Of a stretch of 64,000 bases of DNA, positions 38,131 to 43,661 are shown piece after piece. This stretch comes from Eubacteriales bacterium. GTDB taxonomy: Bacteria; Bacillota; Clostridia; Oscillospirales; CAG-272. The first letter of the stretch is position 1. Every line of letters begins with the position of its first letter. The stretch spans positions 64,257 through 128,256 of the forward strand of contig DBFVEH010000003.1 in assembly GCA_048526005.1 (NCBI GenBank), read 5' to 3'. The notes beneath the pieces are model-generated. The model saw nothing but the letters and a program-made list of their open reading frames with translations, had not been told where the DNA came from and searched no databases. A program made the translations under genes and the position numbers.

Positions 38131-39847
38131 CAAAAGCACCTCCCATCTGCGATTCGCTGATCTCCTTATATTCCGCACAGGTCTCCATGAGGAAATCATG
38201 GTCGCCGATCCCGATGATCCTGCCCTCGTCAAGAACGATGATGACGTCGCAGTCCTTGATGGAGCTGACCCGCTGGGCAACGGTGACGACCGTTGTATCT
38301 TTCATATCCTCCCGCAGCGCCCGGCGAAGATTCGCGTCCGTTTTATAGTCCAGCGCGGAGGAGCTGTCGTCAAGCACAAGGATTTCCGGCCCTGCCGCAA
38401 GGGCGCGGGCAATCAGAATTCTCTGCTTTTGCCCGCCAGAAACATTGGTCCCCTTTTGAGAGAGCATGTGCGCGTAGCCCTCCGGAAAGGCAGAGATAAA
38501 ATCGTCCGCCTGCGCCGTCACCGCCGCCCGCACCACCTGTTCATGCGAAAGCTCTCTGCCGAATCTGATATTTTCCTCGATCGTATCGGCATAGAGAAAA
38601 TCGTTCTGCATCGCCGTGCCGAACATCGGATAAAGCTGCGCGCGCGGAATCGTCCGGATATCCCGTCCGCCGATGCGGATGCTGCCCGCTCCGGGATCGT
38701 AAAAACGCAGAAGAAGCTTCACAAGCGTCGATTTTCCGCTTCCGGTGGCGCCGATAATACCGAGAGAGCCGCCGCGCGGCACCGAAAAGCTGACGTCCGC
38801 AAGGTCGTCATGAGCGCCCTTATAGGAAAAGCTCACATGCTCGAATACAATATATCCGTCGTCGCTCTTACAAGGATATTCGTCCTCGCTTTTGACCGTC
38901 AAATCCTCCGGCATGTCGAGCACCTCTCCGATCCGCTTCGCGGAAGCGGCGCTTTTGGTGTACATGACGAAAATCCTCGTCACCGACATCATCGCCATGG
39001 AAATCAGCGTGAAATACTGCATGAACGCGATAACGGTCTCCGGATCGGATTTGTGTCCTGCGACGCGGGAGGCGCTGAGCGCGACGACGGCGACAATGCC
39101 GATATTCATAAACAGCGTCATGACCGGATTCACCGCGCTCATCGTGATTCCGGCGCGCTTTTCATCCTCCACGAGCGCCCTGTTGACCGTATCGTAGCGG
39201 CGGTGCTCGTATTCGGTTTTGGAAAGCGCCTTGATCACGCGGATGCCCTGCGTGTCCTCCCGCACGACGCGGATCATCTTATCCACGGATTTCTGCACCT
39301 TGGTATAGAGCGGCACGCCTTTCTTGGAAATGAAATACACCGTAACAAAAATCAACGGCAAAACGGCGATCATGGCCATAGCGAGATAGCTGTCCATGAA
39401 AAGCGTGATAGCGATCCCGCCGACAAGCAGGATCGGCGCACGCACGCCCATGCGCTGCATCATGCTGACAAAGCTATGTACATTGTAAGTGTCCGTCGTG
39501 ATGCGCGATTCCAGCGACGGGATCGTAAAGGCGTCCGTCTGTGCCGCCGACAGGTGCAGCGTTCTCTCAAAAAGATCATGCCGGACGTGCTCCGAAAAAT
39601 TCCGCGCCACGCGTGCCGCCATCCGATTCGCGCCGATGTTGCAGACACAGGCAAAGGCCGCGCAGAAGATCATGACCCCGCCCCAAAATACGATGGCGCG
39701 TATTTCCTGCAAGCCGACGACATTTTTCAAAATATGACTTAATATATAAGGAAGGGCAAGCTCGACCAGCGTTCCGGCTGACTTGATGAAAAGTCCCAGC
39801 GACATCCTGCCGTAATAGGGCTTCAAATATCTCAGCATCGTTTTCAT
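38123..39847 (-). CDS. ABC exporter fused permease/ATPase (heterodimer partner A)
   Basis: 574 aa. GATGSGKST, VSGGQKQR, LVLDDSSSALD. Confidence 0.9.
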   Translation of the reverse strand: MKTMLRYLKPYYGRMSLGLFIKSAGTLVELALPYILSHILKNVVGLQEIRAIVFWGGVMIFCAAFACVCNIGANRMAARVARNFSEHVRHDLFERTLHLSAAQTDAFTIPSLESRITTDTYNVHSFVSMMQRMGVRAPILLVGGIAITLFMDSYLAMAMIAVLPLIFVTVYFISKKGVPLYTKVQKSVDKMIRVVREDTQGIRVIKALSKTEYEHRRYDTVNRALVEDEKRAGITMSAVNPVMTLFMNIGIVAVVALSASRVAGHKSDPETVIAFMQYFTLISMAMMSVTRIFVMYTKSAASAKRIGEVLDMPEDLTVKSEDEYPCKSDDGYIVFEHVSFSYKGAHDDLADVSFSVPRGGSLGIIGATGSGKSTLVKLLLRFYDPGAGSIRIGGRDIRTIPRAQLYPMFGTAMQNDFLYADTIEENIRFGRELSHEQVVRAAVTAQADDFISAFPEGYAHMLSQKGTNVSGGQKQRILIARALAAGPEILVLDDSSSALDYKTDANLRRALREDMKDTTVVTVAQRVSSIKDCDVIIVLDEGRIIGIGDHDFLMETCAEYKEISESQMGGAFVE

Positions 39848-40287
39848 TCTTTCGCTTCTTCCCTGTCGTCCGAATATTTTTTAGCGCGCAATGCGAGCCG
39901 CTCCAAAAGCGCACGAAACTGCGCAAGCTCCGCCTCCGTCAGTCCCGCCGTCAGATATTCGTTCCACTCCTCCACAATACGCTTTACATCAGGAAGCACC
40001 TGCCGCATTTTATCCGTCGGATATACCAGCGTGACCCGTTTGTCCGCTTCGCTGTGAATACGGCTGACATACCCATGCTCCTCCAAATAAGCAAGGTGAC
40101 GGGTGACGCCGCTTTTATTGATGCAGATGTGCCTTGCAAGCTCCTCCTGAGAAATCCCGGGATTTCGGCAAATGACAAGAACATAGCTATGGTGGCAGGC
40201 TCCGAGCTCCGCGCCCCGGAGTCTGTCCGTGCGGTAAAGCCCCTCGCAGCGGCTGATCAGATTGATCTGACGCATGATCGTCGGCAT
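39844..40287 (-). CDS. MarR family transcriptional regulator
   Basis: 147 aa winged HTH (ISQEELARHICINKSGVTRHLAYLEEHGYV). 4-nt overlap with the ABC gene. Confidence 0.85.
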   Translation of the reverse strand: MPTIMRQINLISRCEGLYRTDRLRGAELGACHHSYVLVICRNPGISQEELARHICINKSGVTRHLAYLEEHGYVSRIHSEADKRVTLVYPTDKMRQVLPDVKRIVEEWNEYLTAGLTEAELAQFRALLERLALRAKKYSDDREEAKE

Positions 40288-40344
40288 AGACGGCTCCTTT
40301 CCTTATGTCCGCTCCCCGATCAAAATTGACGCGGCGAACAAAAT

Positions 40345-40415
40345 ATTCTAATGGTTGCGCAGGCAACCGTTGCATGCGCAACCATTAGAATAATACAGTT
40401 TCCCCTGTTTGTCAA
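40345..40415 (-). promoter_or_regulatory. marR operon promoter with an overlapping palindromic operator
   Basis: Minus strand: TTGACA (40415-40410), 17 bp, TATTCT (40392-40387). The 16-bp inverted arms ATTCTAATGGTTGCGC / GCGCAACCATTAGAAT (40345-40360 / 40376-40391) overlap the -10 element. Confidence 0.5.
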
Positions 40416-40475: not shown

Positions 40476-40579
40476 GGGTGTCAAGACACCCAAAAAGAAA
40501 ACGAGATACCAAGGCGGTACCTCGTTTTTTTGGTGATCCATCGGAGAGTCGAACTCCGGACACCATGATTAAAAGTCAT
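40476..40579. repeat. Left 104-bp direct repeat (att-like) of the tRNA-Lys islet
   Basis: Matches 42134-42237 at a constant offset of 1658 bp with 3 mismatches. Contains the tRNA 3' part plus the downstream hairpins. Confidence 0.9.
40531..40579 (-). pseudogene. Orphan 3' fragment of tRNA-Lys (nt 28-76: anticodon-stem 3' portion, T-arm, acceptor 3' strand, CCA)
   Basis: Identical to the 3' 49 nt of the intact tRNA at 42189-42264. The 5' half is absent. Confidence 0.85.
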
Positions 40580-40599: not shown

Positions 40600-40628
40600 T
40601 TGACAAGCTCAAAAAGACATGCTATACT
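40600..40628 (+). promoter_or_regulatory. Promoter of cassette A small-peptide mRNA
   Basis: TTGACA (40600-40605), 17 bp, TGc-TATACT (40620-40628). Confidence 0.55.
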
Positions 40629-40686
40629 TTTGTCAGAATATGGTGAAAAAGGCGGTTAGCCAATCCACTGAAAGGTGGTGAGGCAT

Positions 40687-40755
40687 ATGGACTATATAAT
40701 TCTGCTATTGATACTTATAGTATTTTACGCAATTATAAAAGACATAAAAAAATAA
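40687..40755 (+). CDS. 22-aa hydrophobic peptide, type I toxin candidate (cassette A)
   Basis: MDYIILLLILIVFYAIIKDIKK: one TM helix plus a Lys-rich tail. The SD GGTGGTGAGG is partly sequestered by CCAC-tgaaa-GGTGG. Confidence 0.45.
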   Translation: MDYIILLLILIVFYAIIKDIKK

Positions 40756-40787
40756 CCGCCCAAGGCCAATGGTTGCGGTTATTTTTT
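40746..40787. terminator. Bidirectional terminator shared by the convergent RNAs of cassette A
   Basis: AAAAAAATAACCGC-15 nt-GCGGTTATTTTTT. Confidence 0.6.
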
Positions 40788-40835
40788 ATAACTAAAAACT
40801 TCGGCTAACCGCTTTTAACGGTTTCACCATATTCT
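40746..40835 (-). ncRNA. Putative antisense RNA of about 90 nt (antitoxin candidate, cassette A)
   Basis: Bounded by the minus-strand promoter at 40842-40870 and the bidirectional terminator. Overlaps the 3' end of the peptide mRNA. Confidence 0.35.
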
Positions 40836-40841
40836 ATTTTT

Positions 40842-40870
40842 ATTTTACACGAAGGAAATCGATTTGTCAA
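40842..40870 (-). promoter_or_regulatory. Convergent promoter of cassette A
   Basis: Minus strand: TTGACA (40870-40865), 17 bp, TGt-TAAAAT (40847-40842). Confidence 0.5.
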
Positions 40871-40890
40871 TACCTTATTTTCATTTATAA

Positions 40891-40919
40891 TTGACAAGTT
40901 TAAAAAGACATGCTATACT
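40891..40919 (+). promoter_or_regulatory. Promoter of cassette B small-peptide mRNA
   Basis: TTGACA (40891-40896), 17 bp, TGc-TATACT (40911-40919). 59 of 61 nt are identical to the cassette A promoter plus leader. Confidence 0.55.
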
Positions 40920-40978
40920 TTTGTCAGAATATGGTGAAAAAGGCGGTTAGCACTTCCTGAATAAGGAGGTGATGCGCG

Positions 40979-41065
40979 GTGATTACATACACAGAGTTTT
41001 TTACTTTTTGTTTGCTTATCATTGCTCTTATCAGTCTTATTGTAGACTTGATAAGAAAGAAGTAA
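40979..41065 (+). CDS. 28-aa hydrophobic peptide, holin-like type I toxin candidate (cassette B)
   Basis: GTG start 9 nt after AAGGAGG. (M)ITYTEFFTFCLLIIALISLIVDLIRKK resembles the M-x-TY...hydrophobic...KK pattern of small holin-like toxins of Firmicutes. The SD is fully paired by CACTTCCT (40951-40958). Confidence 0.5.
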   Translation: MITYTEFFTFCLLIIALISLIVDLIRKK

Positions 41066-41143
41066 CCGCCCCACGGTACGGGACGGTTACGATATAAAAT
41101 AGCTGATTCCGGCTAACCGCTTTTAACGGTTTCACCATATTCT
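41060..41143 (-). ncRNA. Putative antisense RNA (antitoxin candidate, cassette B)
   Basis: Runs from the minus-strand promoter at 41150-41178 to the hairpin GTAACCG...CGGTTAC (41062-41090), which is followed by a T-rich tract on the minus strand. Confidence 0.3.
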
Positions 41144-41149
41144 ATCTTT

Positions 41150-41178
41150 ATTTTACACGAGAGAAATCGATTTGTCAA
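41150..41178 (-). promoter_or_regulatory. Convergent promoter of cassette B
   Basis: Minus strand: TTGACA (41178-41173), 17 bp, TGt-TAAAAT (41155-41150). Confidence 0.5.
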
Positions 41179-41183
41179 TACCT

Positions 41184-41249
41184 ATGTCATACAATTTTCG
41201 TGATGCAGCGTTCCGATCGGATCCGCAGCGTGGAAAAATTGTATGACAT
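41184..41249 (+). terminator. Long stem-loop with a T-run between cassette B and the DUF2726 gene
   Basis: ATGTCATACAATTTT / AAAATTGTATGACAT, a 15-bp stem with a 36-nt loop, followed by TTTTTATTT on the plus strand. Confidence 0.45.
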
Positions 41250-41251
41250 TT

Positions 41252-41749
41252 TTATTTCAATAGCTTTTGAATAAGCTCGTCAAGATTTGCTTCACCATAT
41301 GTATGCGCAATCTTATAGCCGCATTTTTTCAAAACCTTATCGACGAAATCATCCCGTTCGGCACGTTCGGCGCTGTGATGGGTGCTGTCCTCTAATTCCA
41401 AGATAAATTTGACTGCCAAATTATCCGGATTGCAAAGTACGAAATCGACGTGCTTTGCTTTTATTTTTGCGAAATATTTCTCAAAAGCCATTCCGGTGAA
41501 ATAAGGATCCACTTGCACAAGATCGGCAAGGCGTACCTTTGCCAAAATATGCAGATTAAATTTATCTGCCGATTCTTTCAGTCGTTTATAAAATGCCCAT
41601 TCTGTTTTTGTCAATAAAAATTTTGATTTATAAGGCAGAATCTCATCTTTTTTGGGTTCTGGCGTTTCCGGTTCGGACGGCTTTTCTTTGACAATCTCAT
41701 GATCAACCTGTTCTTTATAGAGTGAATCGCAGCATCCAAACAGTCCCAT
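41252..41749 (-). CDS. DUF2726 (NERD/restriction-endonuclease-like fold) protein
   Basis: 165 aa, low GC. The pattern LLTKTEWAFYKRL...ILAKVRLADLV...HVDFVLC...ILELEDSTH...RDDFV matches DUF2726 as I recall it. Confidence 0.6.
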   Translation of the reverse strand: MGLFGCCDSLYKEQVDHEIVKEKPSEPETPEPKKDEILPYKSKFLLTKTEWAFYKRLKESADKFNLHILAKVRLADLVQVDPYFTGMAFEKYFAKIKAKHVDFVLCNPDNLAVKFILELEDSTHHSAERAERDDFVDKVLKKCGYKIAHTYGEANLDELIQKLLK

Positions 41750-41972
41750 TTTAAGTGTCCTCCGAAACTTATGAAATTTCTATATTTTTCCCTTTTTTGA
41801 TAGTATACACAAATTTGTGATATATTTCAAGATTAAAATACAAAATTTTCTATTTTTCCATGCAAGTTTCGCAAAGCATCAACAAACGTTTCAAACATGC
41901 GCTAATTTTTACAAATGTATAAAATCTGTTTTTTGCCCCTAAAATATATTATATAATCTAATATTACCCAAA

Positions 41973-42119
41973 CAGAATATTTACACCTTGCAGACGATCC
42001 TTGGGCATACGTCCCTTGAAATGGTGAAAAAATATCTGCATATCGCTCCCGGATATGTGATTGCAAACTTCGGAAAATACTCTCCTATCGACGTCAGAAA
42101 CGGACACCATGATTCTTGA
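41973..42119 (+). pseudogene. C-terminal remnant of a tyrosine recombinase (integrase)
   Basis: QNIYTLQTILGHTSLEMVKKYLHIAPGYV...* carries the LGH-x-S-x-x-M-x-x-x-Y-x-H catalytic-Tyr box, but no upstream integrase body is present. Confidence 0.6.
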
Positions 42120-42133
42120 TATCCTCAAAAAAT

Positions 42134-42237
42134 GGGTGTCAAGACACCCAAAACAAAAACGAGATACCAAGGCGGTATCTCGTTTTTTTGGTGATCCATC
42201 GGAGAGTCGAACTCCGGACACCATGATTAAAAGTCAT
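42134..42237. repeat. Right 104-bp direct repeat (att-like), overlapping the intact tRNA-Lys
   Basis: See 40476-40579. This copy keeps a perfect terminator stem (ACGAGATACC/GGTATCTCGT). Confidence 0.9.
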
Positions 42238-42264
42238 GTGCTCTACCTTCTGAGCTAATGGATC
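42189..42264 (-). tRNA. tRNA-Lys (anticodon UUU), CCA encoded
   Basis: GATCCAT-TA-GCTC-AGAAGGTA-GAGC-A-CATGA-CTTTTAA-TCATG-GTGTC-CGGAG-TTCGACT-CTCCG-ATGGATC-A-CCA folds as a canonical 76-nt cloverleaf. Confidence 0.9.
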
Positions 42265-42482
42265 ATTTTCAAAGCTTATCTAATATATCATATTTCACAT
42301 CATTTGTCAATATATTTTTAACAAATTTTATAAAAATATCCTGTGGATTAGTCTTTCCCGCCCCTATATTTTTATGCAAAAATTTTAACAAACGCTTAAA
42401 TTTCGATTCTCTCTTGAAAACTTTCGGCTCAGGGTATATACTGATCATAAGATCAATTTTAAGTGGCAAAGAGGAGACATTT

Positions 42483-43661
42483 ATGAAATTTCTTCACTCC
42501 TGCGGAGATCTCGATTTGTATGAAATCCTATCCGTCGCGGATTTAAAGCGGTTTATCTCCTTTCCCGATCGTCTTTATATAGGGAATCCGAATTATGTTC
42601 CGTCTCTTATGATGGACGAAATGGAAAATCTCAGAAAAGATAAAAATCCCGCGTTTGAATATTGCAGCGCACGCTATTTTATGGCGTTTCGCGGCAAAGA
42701 GCCAGTCGGAAGGGTCGCTGCGATCCACAATCGGCGCTTTAACGAGATCTGGAACAAAAGCTGCGTTCGTTTTTCCCGATATGACGTCATCGACGATATC
42801 GAGGTATCGCGTGCGCTCCTTGCAGAAGTGGAAGCTTATGCAAAAACGCTCGGCATGACCGAAGTGCAGGGACCGATGGGCTTCTGTGACCTCGATCATC
42901 AGGGACTGCTCGTCGACGGCTTCGACAAAAAGGGACTTTTTATCACCACCTACAACCATCCGTATTACATGGAGCATTTGGAAGCGCTCGGCTATGCAAA
43001 GCTCACGGATTGGGTGGAAATGATCATGGAAAAGCCCGAAACGCTCGATCCGCGAATCAAAAGGATCGCGGATTACTCCCTTGAAAAGCTGAATCTGCAC
43101 GAGGTTCATTTGAAAAAGACAAAAGAAATCCTGCCATATGCAAAAGACCTTTTTGATCTACTTTATGAGGCTTACAAAAATATCTACGGCGTCATTCCGC
43201 TGGACGACAAGCAGGTGGAGCTTTACATCGGACAGTTCATCACGCTCGTCAAGCCGGAATTTCTCACGCTGATCGTCGATGAAAACAACATTCCCGTGTC
43301 CTTCGGCGTCGTCATCCCCTCCCTTGCGGACACGGTGCGCAGCTGCAAGGGACGCCTCTTCCCTTTCGGCTGGGTCCATCTGCTGCGGTATTTTACCGCG
43401 AAAAAGCATGAGACGCTGGAATTTCTGCTGATCGCCACGCATCCGAAATACTGGAACAGCGCGCTGAATGCCGAGATCATCGTACATACCTTTGAGGGCG
43501 CCGAAAAATTCGGCATCAAGTATGCGGAAACAGGTCCCATGCTTGAAACCAATCTGCGCATCCAATCCATGTGGAGCAGATTCCATGCGGAAATCCACAA
43601 AAGACGCCGCTGTTATGTAAAGCCGGTCGGAGAAAAGCAGGAGGCGGGATCCGGCACATGA
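42483..43661 (+). CDS. GNAT-like acyltransferase-fold protein, function unknown
   Basis: ATG at 42483 after AGAGGAG, 392 aa. The family call is tentative, based on size and pattern as recalled. The 5' 75 codons of the ORF were rejected because they are AT-rich and overlap the tRNA. Confidence 0.4.
   Translation: MKFLHSCGDLDLYEILSVADLKRFISFPDRLYIGNPNYVPSLMMDEMENLRKDKNPAFEYCSARYFMAFRGKEPVGRVAAIHNRRFNEIWNKSCVRFSRYDVIDDIEVSRALLAEVEAYAKTLGMTEVQGPMGFCDLDHQGLLVDGFDKKGLFITTYNHPYYMEHLEALGYAKLTDWVEMIMEKPETLDPRIKRIADYSLEKLNLHEVHLKKTKEILPYAKDLFDLLYEAYKNIYGVIPLDDKQVELYIGQFITLVKPEFLTLIVDENNIPVSFGVVIPSLADTVRSCKGRLFPFGWVHLLRYFTAKKHETLEFLLIATHPKYWNSALNAEIIVHTFEGAEKFGIKYAETGPMLETNLRIQSMWSRFHAEIHKRRRCYVKPVGEKQEAGSGT

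What the first reader, a model, noticed from the sequence alone, without database searches (positions are those of the whole stretch)
40600..41178. Two tandem type I toxin-antitoxin-like cassettes with convergent consensus promoters around small hydrophobic peptides
Each cassette of about 280 bp has four parts. First, a plus-strand TTGACA-17-TGcTATACT promoter. Second, a leader in which the SD is sequestered: in cassette B CACUUCCU pairs with all 8 nt of AGGAGGUG, and in cassette A CCAC pairs with GGUGG. Third, a short ORF for a single-TM peptide with a Lys-rich tail (A: MDYIILLLILIVFYAIIKDIKK; B: (M)ITYTEFFTFCLLIIALISLIVDLIRKK). Fourth, a hairpin terminator and a minus-strand TTGACA-17-TGtTAAAAT promoter firing back toward it. 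That minus-strand promoter predicts an antisense RNA of about 85-90 nt overlapping the mRNA 3' end. This is the layout of 3'-overlapping type I systems (txpA/RatA, bsrG/SR4, and Fst RNAI/RNAII with a shared bidirectional terminator). Peptide B resembles the small holin-like toxin pattern of Firmicutes. Neither peptide appears in the ORF track because both are under 60 aa.
Basis: partly seen in the sequence, partly recalled or inferred. Interest (0 to 1): 0.7.

Follow-up and report, generated by a model that had tools for sequence, protein, structure and literature searches.

The report
Tandem SprG/SprF-type type I toxin-antitoxin pair
Two adjacent mini-genes in a gut Clostridiales genome each pair a tiny membrane-peptide "toxin" message with a convergent antisense RNA; they are distant relatives of the Staphylococcus sprG/sprF and Bacillus bsrG/txpA systems, so this is a new member of a known kind.

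Summary
Window 40600-41183 carries two tandem ~280-bp cassettes. Each has a plus-strand near-consensus promoter, a leader with an anti-SD/SD hairpin, a 22-aa (A) or 28-aa (B) hydrophobic Lys-tailed ORF, a hairpin at the stop codon and a convergent minus-strand near-consensus promoter. Five of the ten best promoter matches (>=11/12) in the 64-kb window lie in these 580 bp.

The type I toxin-antitoxin reading is supported, and the family can be named: TxpA/BsrG/SprG (Pfam Hol_Tox).
- Peptide B reaches the Hol_Tox cut-off (23.8 vs 23.3 bits) and is 46% identical to the 31-aa form of S. aureus SprG1.
- The best Rfam hit of both mRNAs, below threshold, is rli28. That model scores sprG1 at 95.9 bits.
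- The antisense leader aligns with SprF1.
- The odd inverted repeat, which makes both RNAs start with the same ~30 nt, is also present at sprG1/sprF1.

A second haplotype, 6% diverged, keeps the promoter hexamers, leaders and reading frames. Its changes fall in promoter spacers, synonymous sites and the hairpin.

The pair travels with a DUF2726 gene as a 1.26-kb module, here in a tRNA-Lys islet and elsewhere at the end of a Tn916-like element. Transcripts and toxicity are untested. Verdict: new member of a known kind, modest interest.

The parts
40600..40628 (+). Promoter of toxin mRNA A (TTGACA-17-TGc-TATACT); predicted TSS at 40635/40636
   Evidence: 11/12, TG present. Hexamers are unchanged in haplotype 2 while the spacer varies.
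40635..40686 (+). Leader of mRNA A. It holds the mirrored element AGAAUAUGGUGAAA..GCGGUUAGCC and the anti-SD/SD hairpin CCACU(40665-40669)/GGUGG(40674-40678)
   Evidence: No substitutions versus haplotype 2.
40687..40755 (+). ORF A: 22-aa hydrophobic peptide MDYIILLLILIVFYAIIKDIKK plus stop (GRAVY 1.64)
   Evidence: Identical in haplotype 2. No family hit.
40747..40790 (.). Hairpin A at the stop codon, with T-runs on both strands (bidirectional terminator). The Lys AAA codons template the U-tract of the antisense RNA
   Evidence: Folds; sequence.
40742..40835 (-). Predicted antisense RNA A (~90 nt). Its leader (40835-40802) mirrors the mRNA leader and forms the AACCGUU/AGCGGUU hairpin
   Evidence: (z -3.4). 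Aligns with SprF1.
40842..40870 (-). Promoter of antisense RNA A (TTGACA-17-TAAAAT)
   Evidence: Four substitutions versus haplotype 2, all in the spacer.
40891..40919 (+). Promoter of toxin mRNA B (TTGACA-17-TGc-TATACT); predicted TSS at 40926/40927
   Evidence: Four substitutions versus haplotype 2, none in the hexamers or the TG.
40926..40978 (+). Leader of mRNA B. It holds the mirrored element and the 8-bp anti-SD/SD hairpin CACUUCCU(40951-40958)/AGGAGGUG(40964-40971)
   Evidence: z -5.1. No substitutions versus haplotype 2.
40979..41065 (+). ORF B: 28-aa peptide (M)ITYTEFFTFCLLIIALISLIVDLIRKK plus stop, GTG start; Hol_Tox/SprG-like
   Evidence: Haplotype 2 differs by 4 synonymous codons, I18V and R26K.
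41062..41090 (-). Hairpin B (13 bp) with a T-rich tail on the minus strand only; terminator of antisense RNA B
   Evidence: Replaced by a different hairpin in haplotype 2.
41052..41143 (-). Predicted antisense RNA B (~90 nt); mirrored leader at 41143-41110
   Evidence: (z -3.5).
41150..41178 (-). Promoter of antisense RNA B (TTGACA-17-TAAAAT)
   Evidence: One spacer substitution versus haplotype 2.
41177..41256 (.). Long hairpin (22-nt arms) followed by T-runs. Likely a bidirectional terminator between cassette B and the convergent DUF2726 gene, and a possible 3' end of a read-through mRNA B
   Evidence: I3; sequence.
41252..41749 (-). DUF2726 (nuclease-fold) gene that co-travels with the two cassettes in the 1.26-kb module 40600-41858
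   Evidence: PF10881, 82 bits.
40476..40579 (.). Left copy of a 104-nt direct repeat (3' half of tRNA-Lys plus its terminator); att-like boundary of the islet
   Evidence: D1, 97%.
42134..42264 (-). Right copy of the repeat (42134-42237) within and downstream of the intact tRNA-Lys(ttt) gene (42189-42264)

Best explanation
These are two tandem, mutually orthogonal type I toxin-antitoxin modules of the TxpA/BsrG/SprG-SprF family. They are carried as cargo of mobile elements in an uncultured gut Clostridiales bacterium.

Proposed mechanism for each cassette:
1. A strong sigma-A-type promoter makes a ~160-220-nt mRNA. Its SD is locked in a local anti-SD hairpin.
2. The mRNA's 5' leader can pair with sequence at or after the stop codon. 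If the mRNA reads through the stop-codon hairpin, the leader pairs with a mirrored 3' segment and forms a 5'-3' panhandle. This keeps the message translationally quiet and stable.
3. The mRNA encodes a 22- or 28-aa single-helix membrane peptide with a KK tail.
4. A convergent promoter makes a ~90-nt antisense RNA. It ends at the stop-codon hairpin, and its U-tract is templated by the Lys codons.
5. The antisense RNA is perfectly complementary to the last >=45-50 nt of the mRNA, or ~90 nt with read-through. By analogy with SprF1, RatA and SR4 it forms a duplex that triggers mRNA decay (RNase III type) and/or blocks translation.
6. The middle of the cassette (end of ORF plus hairpin) differs between A and B, so each antisense RNA should act only on its own mRNA.

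Likely role: addiction or stabilisation of the carrying element (Tn916-like element, tRNA-Lys islet), or a stress or phage-triggered membrane toxin.

Shown by sequence: motifs, homology, and the conservation pattern between haplotypes. Inferred: transcript ends, RNA pairing in vivo, toxicity and biological role.
For: Anatomy:
- Four 11/12 promoters in convergent pairs. Five of the ten best sites in 64 kb lie in 580 bp.
- Anti-SD/SD hairpins that differ in a compensatory way between A and B.
- Predicted RNAs fold better than shuffles: z -2.1 and -5.1 for the mRNAs, -3.4 and -3.5 for the antisense RNAs, and -7.9 and -10.6 for the read-through mRNAs.

Homology:
- Peptide B scores 23.8 bits on Hol_Tox PF16935 (cut-off 23.3). 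BsrG and SprG1 score 34.5 on the same model. Both reference sequences were confirmed in SPbeta and phiN315.
- Peptide B is 46% identical over 26 aa to SprG1-short, pairwise E 1e-6.
- Rfam rli28 is the top hit of both mRNAs (30 and 18 bits, below threshold) and scores sprG1 at 95.9 bits.
- The antisense leader GGUGAAACCGUUAAAAGCGGUUAGCC aligns with SprF1 AGUGAGCCCGUUAAAAAGACGGUGGCUA.
- The sprG1/sprF1 locus has the same mirrored-leader inverted repeat and predicted panhandle.
- The Rfam BsrG consensus structure has an outer 5'-3' helix, a leader:post-stop helix and an SD hairpin.

Selection, haplotype 2 versus window (78 differences in 1259 nt):
- Leaders: 1 difference in 173 nt against 10.7 expected.
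- Promoters: 10 differences, none in a hexamer or the TG.
- ORF B: 4 synonymous and 2 conservative changes. ORF A: identical.
- The A/B length difference is in frame.

Specificity: cognate mRNA/antisense cofold gains are -51 and -48.5 kcal/mol; non-cognate gains are about -6.

Context: the pair sits on mobile DNA in two settings.

Literature:
- 3'-overlapping antisense RNAs define the Gram-positive families (PMC8594479).
- SprG peptides are 19-44 aa, copies lie adjacent, and there is no cross-talk (PMC6393307).
- Tandem duplication is typical, and TxpA-like genes occur in Clostridiales (PMC2887945).
Against: - There is no transcript, TSS or toxicity evidence of any kind.
- The Hol_Tox hit is borderline. 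The haplotype 2 peptide scores 23.2, just under the cut-off, and hydrophobic peptides give spurious matches easily.
- Peptide A matches no family and is not detectably similar to B. At 22 aa, with only a 14-residue hydrophobic core, it may not be toxic.
- Both mRNAs fall below the rli28 gathering score, and the antisense RNAs do not hit RatA.
- Only two haplotypes of each cassette were found, so covariation and dN/dS statistics are very thin.
- The mRNA 3' end is ambiguous, so the panhandle may never form.
Confidence: 0.78

Rival explanations
1. The cassettes are antisense-regulated small membrane or secreted peptides whose main role is not self-poisoning. They could be cytolytic or bacteriocin-like peptides aimed at competitors (as reported for the SprG1 peptides), or non-toxic membrane modulators (like B. 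subtilis YhzE-2). The antisense RNA would then simply tune expression.
For: - SprG1 peptides are secreted and lyse erythrocytes and other bacteria (PMC4885055).
- YhzE-2, found in a tandem-repeat search, was not toxic (PMC2887945).
- Peptide A is very short and has no family hit.
Against: - The RNA architecture is the same as in validated toxin-antitoxin pairs.
- The location at the end of mobile elements fits addiction.
- SprG peptides are also toxic to the producer (PMC6393307).
Confidence: 0.13
2. The cassettes are pairs of non-coding regulatory RNAs of the mobile element, for example controlling excision or the neighbouring DUF2726 gene. The small ORFs would be incidental.
For: - The transcribed leaders are the most conserved parts.
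- In L014 the antisense module occurs without any toxin ORF.
Against: - Each ORF sits at the right distance from a strong SD.
- The frame is kept despite an 18-nt length difference between A and B.
- ORF B substitutions are synonymous or conservative.
- Peptide B is homologous to known toxins.
Confidence: 0.05
3. The cassettes are a decaying, non-functional relic of a toxin-antitoxin pair in a degraded islet.
For: The window copy lies in a 1.66-kb islet that retains only an integrase C-terminal remnant.
Against: - All four promoters, both SDs and both ORFs are intact.
- They are conserved in a second, apparently intact element with Xis and Int.
- The co-travelling DUF2726 variants are listed in 179 and 406 blocks of the contig collection; the cassettes themselves were read in 14 of those contigs.
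Confidence: 0.04

Closest known systems
sprG1/SprF1 (and sprG2-4/SprF2-4) of Staphylococcus aureus, TxpA/RatA family
   Same: - Convergent antisense RNA that ends at a hairpin at the toxin stop codon, with its U-tract templated by the KK codons.
- Peptide B is 46% identical to SprG1-short.
- SD context AAGGAGGUGGUG...AUG.
- Mirrored leader shared by the mRNA and the antisense RNA, with a predicted 5'-3' panhandle.
- Adjacent paralogous copies with peptides of 19-44 aa and cognate-only neutralisation.
- Location on mobile DNA.
(PMC6393307, PMC4885055)
   Different: - No N-terminal extension or second start codon.
- The antisense RNA lacks the extra 5' hairpin of SprF1/RatA and does not hit Rfam RatA.
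- There is no dedicated mRNA terminator hairpin beyond the panhandle.
- Both RNAs start exactly at the mirrored element.
- The host is a gut Clostridiales bacterium, and the carrier is a Tn916-like element or tRNA islet rather than a prophage.
- The mRNAs score below the rli28 threshold.
bsrG/SR4 (SPbeta) and txpA/RatA (skin) of Bacillus subtilis
   Same: - Same Pfam toxin family.
- 3'-overlapping antisense RNA.
- SD/anti-SD hairpin with a GAAA-type loop, a leader:post-stop helix and an outer 5'-3' helix in the Rfam BsrG consensus.
- A role proposed in keeping mobile elements (PMC6563280).
   Different: - No detectable hit to the Rfam BsrG model.
- The peptides here are shorter.
- The predicted RNAs are much shorter.
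par (fst RNAI/RNAII) of pAD1
   Same: Convergent RNAs that share a bidirectional terminator hairpin, and a small hydrophobic peptide.
   Different: - par uses direct repeats, so the two RNA 5' regions are complementary and the antitoxin covers the start codon (from my own knowledge of par).
- Here the repeats are inverted, so the 5' ends are identical.
- The antisense leader has no above-chance complementarity to the mRNA 5' part.
- There is no Fst family hit.
Clostridioides difficile type I modules (CD2517.1-RCd8 etc.)
   Same: Clostridial host, convergent overlap, a hydrophobic N-terminus with a Lys-rich tail, location on mobile elements and a stabilising role (PMC6563280, PMC7699646).
   Different: Those toxins are about 30-56 aa and are reported to have no homology to the TxpA or Fst families. 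Sequence comparison was not run here.

Membership tests
TxpA/BsrG/SprG toxin family (Pfam PF16935 Hol_Tox) | Peptide matches the family HMM at or above the gathering score | tested here: inconclusive
   Peptide B (window) scores 23.8 bits against a cut-off of 23.3. The haplotype 2 peptide B scores 23.2. Peptide A has no hit. Controls BsrG and SprG1 score 34.5.
TxpA/BsrG/SprG toxin family (Pfam PF16935 Hol_Tox) | Direct similarity to an experimentally characterised member | tested here: met
   Peptide B versus SprG1-short: 12/26 identical, ungapped from Met1, pairwise E 1e-6. The reference sequence was verified in phiN315. Not met for peptide A.
TxpA/BsrG/SprG toxin family (Pfam PF16935 Hol_Tox) | Small single-helix hydrophobic peptide with a charged (Lys) C-terminus | tested here: met
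   22 and 28 aa, GRAVY 1.64 and 1.47, ending in KDIKK and DLIRKK.
TxpA/BsrG/SprG toxin family (Pfam PF16935 Hol_Tox) | Toxic to the producer when overexpressed | not testable with these tools
   Needs an expression experiment.
SprG/SprF - TxpA/RatA type I locus | Convergent antisense RNA gene that overlaps the 3' end of the toxin mRNA, including the end of the ORF | tested here: met
   Met at the sequence level only. Convergent 11/12 promoters sit 90 nt from a minus-strand terminator that covers the stop codon and Lys codons. The hexamers are conserved across haplotypes. Transcripts were not observed.
SprG/SprF - TxpA/RatA type I locus | SD sequestered by an upstream anti-SD hairpin | tested here: met
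SprG/SprF - TxpA/RatA type I locus | 5'-3' long-range pairing of the toxin mRNA (mirrored leader) | tested here: met
   The inverted repeat occurs four times. Panhandle folds give z -7.9 and -10.6. The same feature is present at sprG1 and in the Rfam BsrG consensus. It needs mRNA read-through, which was not shown.
SprG/SprF - TxpA/RatA type I locus | RNA covariance-model membership (rli28 RF01492 for the mRNA, RatA RF01776 for the antitoxin) | tested here: not met
   rli28 scores 30 bits (B) and 18 bits (A) against a gathering score of 45. RatA gives no hit at E<=10. sprG1 scores 95.9 and SprF1 45.2.
Fst/RNAII (par) family | Direct repeats that make the antitoxin 5' region complementary to the toxin translation-initiation region | tested here: not met
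   The repeats are inverted. The antisense 5' 34 nt pairs with the mRNAs no better than shuffles do: 47 and 53 of 300 shuffles are at least as good.
SprA1/SprA1AS family | Cis-encoded antisense RNA whose non-overlapping 5' domain pairs in trans with the RBS and start codon | tested here: not met
   Same test as for par.

The most novel reading that the evidence does not exclude
The mirrored leader may be a conserved regulatory device of the whole TxpA/SprG family that I did not find described in the papers I read. The mRNA and its antitoxin RNA start with the same ~30 nt, a feature shared from Staphylococcus to gut Clostridia.

In this reading the antitoxin mimics the mRNA's own 5' end. It competes with that end for the mRNA's 3' segment, so binding opens a protective 5'-3' panhandle and exposes the message to decay.

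Here the device is reduced to its minimal form: both RNAs begin exactly at the element, with no extra hairpins. The variable middle acts as an exchangeable specificity cartridge that gives orthogonal tandem pairs.
Probability: 0.25. Interest if true: 0.5.

Novelty: new member of a known kind. Interest (0 to 1): 0.3.

Why it matters
- It extends the SprG/SprF-TxpA/RatA family of type I toxin-antitoxin systems to uncultured human-gut Clostridiales. An earlier survey found TxpA-like genes in almost no Clostridia (PMC6563280).
- It places the family at the end of a Tn916-like mobile element, where it could stabilise the element.
- The cassettes are compact and highly regular. The leaders are constant and the specificity core is variable, so they could serve as a minimal model, or as orthogonal parts, for studying how these RNAs work.
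- Gene callers miss both peptides because they are under 30 aa. This is a reminder that such loci are invisible in standard metagenome annotation.

Tried and rejected
Searches for related cassettes:
- blastn (distant mode) of the 611-bp region against plasmids and phages gave no match.
- tblastn of peptide B against both collections gave no match.
- The leader pattern gave nothing in viral contigs.
- In GTDB species representatives it gave only nine single hits in unrelated phyla, about the number I estimated for a 20-base pattern in a collection of this size, so the species representative lacks the locus.
- The metagenome pattern scan and look-ups through the neighbouring DUF2726 gene found the cassettes only as two haplotypes. 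No covariation model was worth building.
- More distant DUF2726 homologues (68-79% identical; L015-L022) carry no cassette.
- The search for homologous proteins refuses queries under 40 aa.

Rejected readings:
- The 42-aa alternative frame in cassette B (40969-41097) is rejected. Its start abuts the SD, it has no Pfam hit, and it is not conserved in cassette A.
- The GTG start at 40675 for peptide A is rejected because it has no SD.
- A SprA1AS- or par-type trans pairing of the antisense 5' domain with the RBS is rejected.

Other negatives:
- PADLOC gave nothing for DUF2726 or either peptide.
- The other sub-threshold Rfam hits (tsr25, STnc370, LhrC and others) are terminator-like or AT-rich chance matches.
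Full report
**1. The observation**

Window 40600-41183 holds two tandem cassettes: A at 40600-40875 and B at 40891-41183.
- The left 85 nt are 86% identical between cassettes and the right 74 nt are 96% identical. The middle, which holds the ORF and hairpin, has diverged.
- Each cassette has a plus-strand TTGACA-17-TATACT promoter with an upstream TG, and a convergent minus-strand TTGACA-17-TAAAAT promoter. All four match 11 of 12 consensus positions.
- The whole 64-kb window, both strands, has only ten sites at >=11/12. Five of them lie in these 580 bp.
- Each ORF sits 6-7 nt after an SD that pairs with an upstream anti-SD. In A this is CCACU/GGUGG across a GAAA loop; in B it is CACUUCCU/AGGAGGUG.

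1. The minus-strand promoters have no canonical extended -10.
2. Hairpin B has a T-run only on the minus strand.
3. Both predicted RNAs begin with the same sequence, AGAATATGGTGAAA..GCGGTTAGC. It occurs four times, twice per strand, against 0 expected. The identity starts at the predicted transcription start, and the promoter spacers upstream are unrelated.

**2. Related copies and selection**

The cassette has no match in phage or plasmid collections, in viral contigs, or in GTDB species representatives.

Metagenome contigs and look-ups through the neighbouring gene give two haplotypes only.
- Haplotype 1 is the window's own type.
- Haplotype 2 is 6% diverged: 78 differences in 1259 nt.

The differences between the two are far from evenly spread.
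- The four transcribed leaders have 1 difference in 173 nt, against 10.7 expected.
- The four promoters have 10 differences, none in a hexamer or in the TG.
- ORF A is identical in both haplotypes.
- ORF B has four synonymous codon changes plus I18V and R26K.
- Hairpin B is replaced outright by a different hairpin, one with T-runs on both sides.
- The 18-nt length difference between ORF A and ORF B is in frame.

This is the pattern expected of real promoters, functional RNA leaders and translated ORFs. With two haplotypes the statistics are thin.

**3. What it is**

Peptide evidence:
- Peptide B reaches the Pfam Hol_Tox (PF16935) gathering score, 23.8 against 23.3. The haplotype 2 version scores 23.2.
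- That model scores B. subtilis BsrG and S. aureus SprG1 at 34.5 bits. The phiN315 ORF is annotated 'putative holin-like toxin'.
- Hol_Tox is therefore the TxpA/BsrG/SprG toxin family. [quoted passage not shown]
- Peptide B is 46% identical, without gaps from Met1, to the 31-aa form of SprG1.

RNA evidence:
- Rfam rli28 is the best hit of both cassette mRNAs, below threshold (30 and 18 bits; gathering score 45). It scores the sprG1 mRNA at 95.9 bits.
- The antisense leader GGUGAAACCGUUAAAAGCGGUUAGCC aligns with SprF1 AGUGAGCCCGUUAAAAAGACGGUGGCUA.
- The stop-codon context AAAAAAUAACC followed by a hairpin is shared.

The mirrored leader:
- The sprG1/sprF1 locus has the same mirrored-leader inverted repeat, 40 nt at 73%.
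- A fold of the sprG1 region from its promoter to the first plus-strand terminator gives a 5'-3' panhandle. The panhandle encloses the ORF and a post-stop hairpin that is the antisense terminator.
- The Rfam BsrG consensus also has an outer 5'-3' helix, a helix between the leader and the post-stop region, and an SD hairpin.
- The feature that looked oddest is therefore a family trait.

Peptide A matches no family and is not detectably similar to B. Its cassette is clearly a paralogue through its flanks. SprG peptides as short as 19 and 26 aa are known (PMC6393307).

**4. How it most likely works**

By homology with SprG1/SprF1, TxpA/RatA and BsrG/SR4 (PMC4885055, PMC6563280, PMC8594479), I infer the following.
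- The mRNA is made constitutively but kept untranslated by the SD hairpin.
- The leader GGCGGUUA can also pair with UAACCGCC at the stop codon; this is in the minimum-energy fold of mRNA B. If the mRNA reads through the hairpin, the leader pairs with the mirrored 3' segment. That is 24 bp in two blocks, with z -7.9 and -10.6.
- The ~90-nt antisense RNA ends at the stop-codon hairpin. Its U-tract is the complement of the Lys codons, so the KK tail and the antisense terminator constrain each other.
- The antisense RNA is perfectly complementary to the mRNA 3' end. The duplex presumably triggers decay and/or blocks translation.
- Cognate cofolding gains are -51 and -48.5 kcal/mol. Non-cognate gains are about -6. 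The diverged middle should therefore make A and B orthogonal, as shown experimentally for the SprG/SprF copies (PMC6393307).
- The constant antisense 5' domain has no above-chance complementarity to the mRNA 5' part. This argues against a par-type or SprA1AS-type mechanism.
- The mRNA 3' ends are uncertain. Hairpin A and the haplotype 2 hairpin B look like plus-strand terminators; the window's hairpin B does not.

**5. Context**

- The host is an uncultured gut Clostridiales bacterium (MAG proteins MBS6446733.1 and MBS6446519.1).
- In the window the pair lies in a low-GC (36-45%) 1.66-kb islet. The islet is bounded by a 104-nt direct repeat of the 3' half of tRNA-Lys plus its terminator, and it retains only an integrase C-terminal remnant.
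- Haplotype 2 lies at the very end of an element ordered Tn916-Xis, Int, DUF2726, cassette B, cassette A, then a tRNA-like fragment, with an AIPR gene beyond it.
- The unit shared between the two contexts is window 40600-41858. It starts exactly at the -35 of cassette A and includes the DUF2726 gene.
- A related species (L015) has DUF2726 next to the same MarR-ABC genes but no cassettes.
- The DUF2726 variants are listed in 179 and 406 blocks of the contig collection, so the DUF2726 gene that accompanies the cassettes is common in gut metagenomes.
- Location on mobile DNA fits the stabilising role proposed for this family and shown for C. difficile type I systems (PMC6563280, PMC7699646).

**6. 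Verdict**

The locus is best filed as a new, compact member of the TxpA/BsrG/SprG-SprF kind of type I toxin-antitoxin system.
- Peptide-level membership is borderline to good for B and unsupported for A.
- Architecture-level membership is met.
- The curated RNA models are not met.
- Transcription, toxicity and biological role remain to be tested.
- Interest is modest. The most interesting residue is the minimal form of the mirrored leader, which I did not see discussed in the papers I read.

Noticed in passing
window 40476-40579 and 42134-42237; tRNA-Lys 42189-42264 (-); 41988-42119 (+): A 104-nt direct repeat (97%) duplicates the 3' half of tRNA-Lys(ttt) plus its downstream terminator. It brackets a 1.66-kb low-GC islet. 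A 43-aa ORF with a weak Phage_integrase C-terminal match (E 0.02) sits 15 nt from the right repeat. This looks like a degraded integrative element.
   Followed up: partly
window 40600-41858; L012 3624-4879; L025-L030; L015 1106-1726: The DUF2726 gene plus the two cassettes form a 1.26-kb unit with sharp boundaries, found in two unrelated integrase contexts. A related species (L015) has DUF2726 at the same MarR-ABC locus with 722 nt of GC-rich repeats in place of the cassettes. DUF2726 has no PADLOC hit.
   Followed up: partly
L014 3560-3700: The antisense module of haplotype 2 cassette B (promoter, leader and right arm of the hairpin) follows the 3' end of an unrelated small gene downstream of ftsH, with no toxin ORF. 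This is either an orphan antitoxin left by a deletion with its breakpoint inside the hairpin loop, or a chimeric low-coverage (2x) assembly.
   Followed up: partly
L031 429-607 (+) and 680-772 (-): The Rfam family rli28, described as a 'Listeria sRNA', scores the S. aureus sprG1 toxin mRNA at 95.9 bits (gathering score 45). The model therefore seems to describe SprG/TxpA-type toxin mRNAs rather than a non-coding sRNA. RatA scores SprF1 at 45.2 bits, just under its cut-off of 49.
   Followed up: partly
L015 91-230, 539-660, 839-965: Three tandem units lie upstream of the DUF2726 homologue. Each has a promoter-like site (TTGAAA/TTGCAA-17-TATACT), about 100 nt of GC-rich structured sequence and a terminator. 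There is no Rfam match; they may be unknown small RNAs.
   Followed up: partly
window 40344-40392: A near-perfect 24-nt-arm palindrome (96%), TATTCTAATGGTTGCGCAGGCAAC/GTTGCATGCGCAACCATTAGAATA, lies upstream of the MarR-family gene (39844-40287, minus). A minus-strand promoter-like site at 40415-40387 overlaps its right arm by a few bases. It is likely the MarR operator.
   Followed up: no
window 40864-40891 (+): A fifth 11/12 promoter-like site (TTGTCA-16-TATAAT) lies in the spacer between the cassettes. It overlaps the antisense A -35 on the other strand and the -35 of cassette B. It may be a by-product of the palindromic TTGTCAA/TTGACAA.
   Followed up: no
window 42258-43661 (+): This 467-aa ORF has no Pfam hit and its first codons overlap the tRNA-Lys gene. 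The true start is probably a downstream Met (for example MKFLHSCGD...).
   Followed up: no
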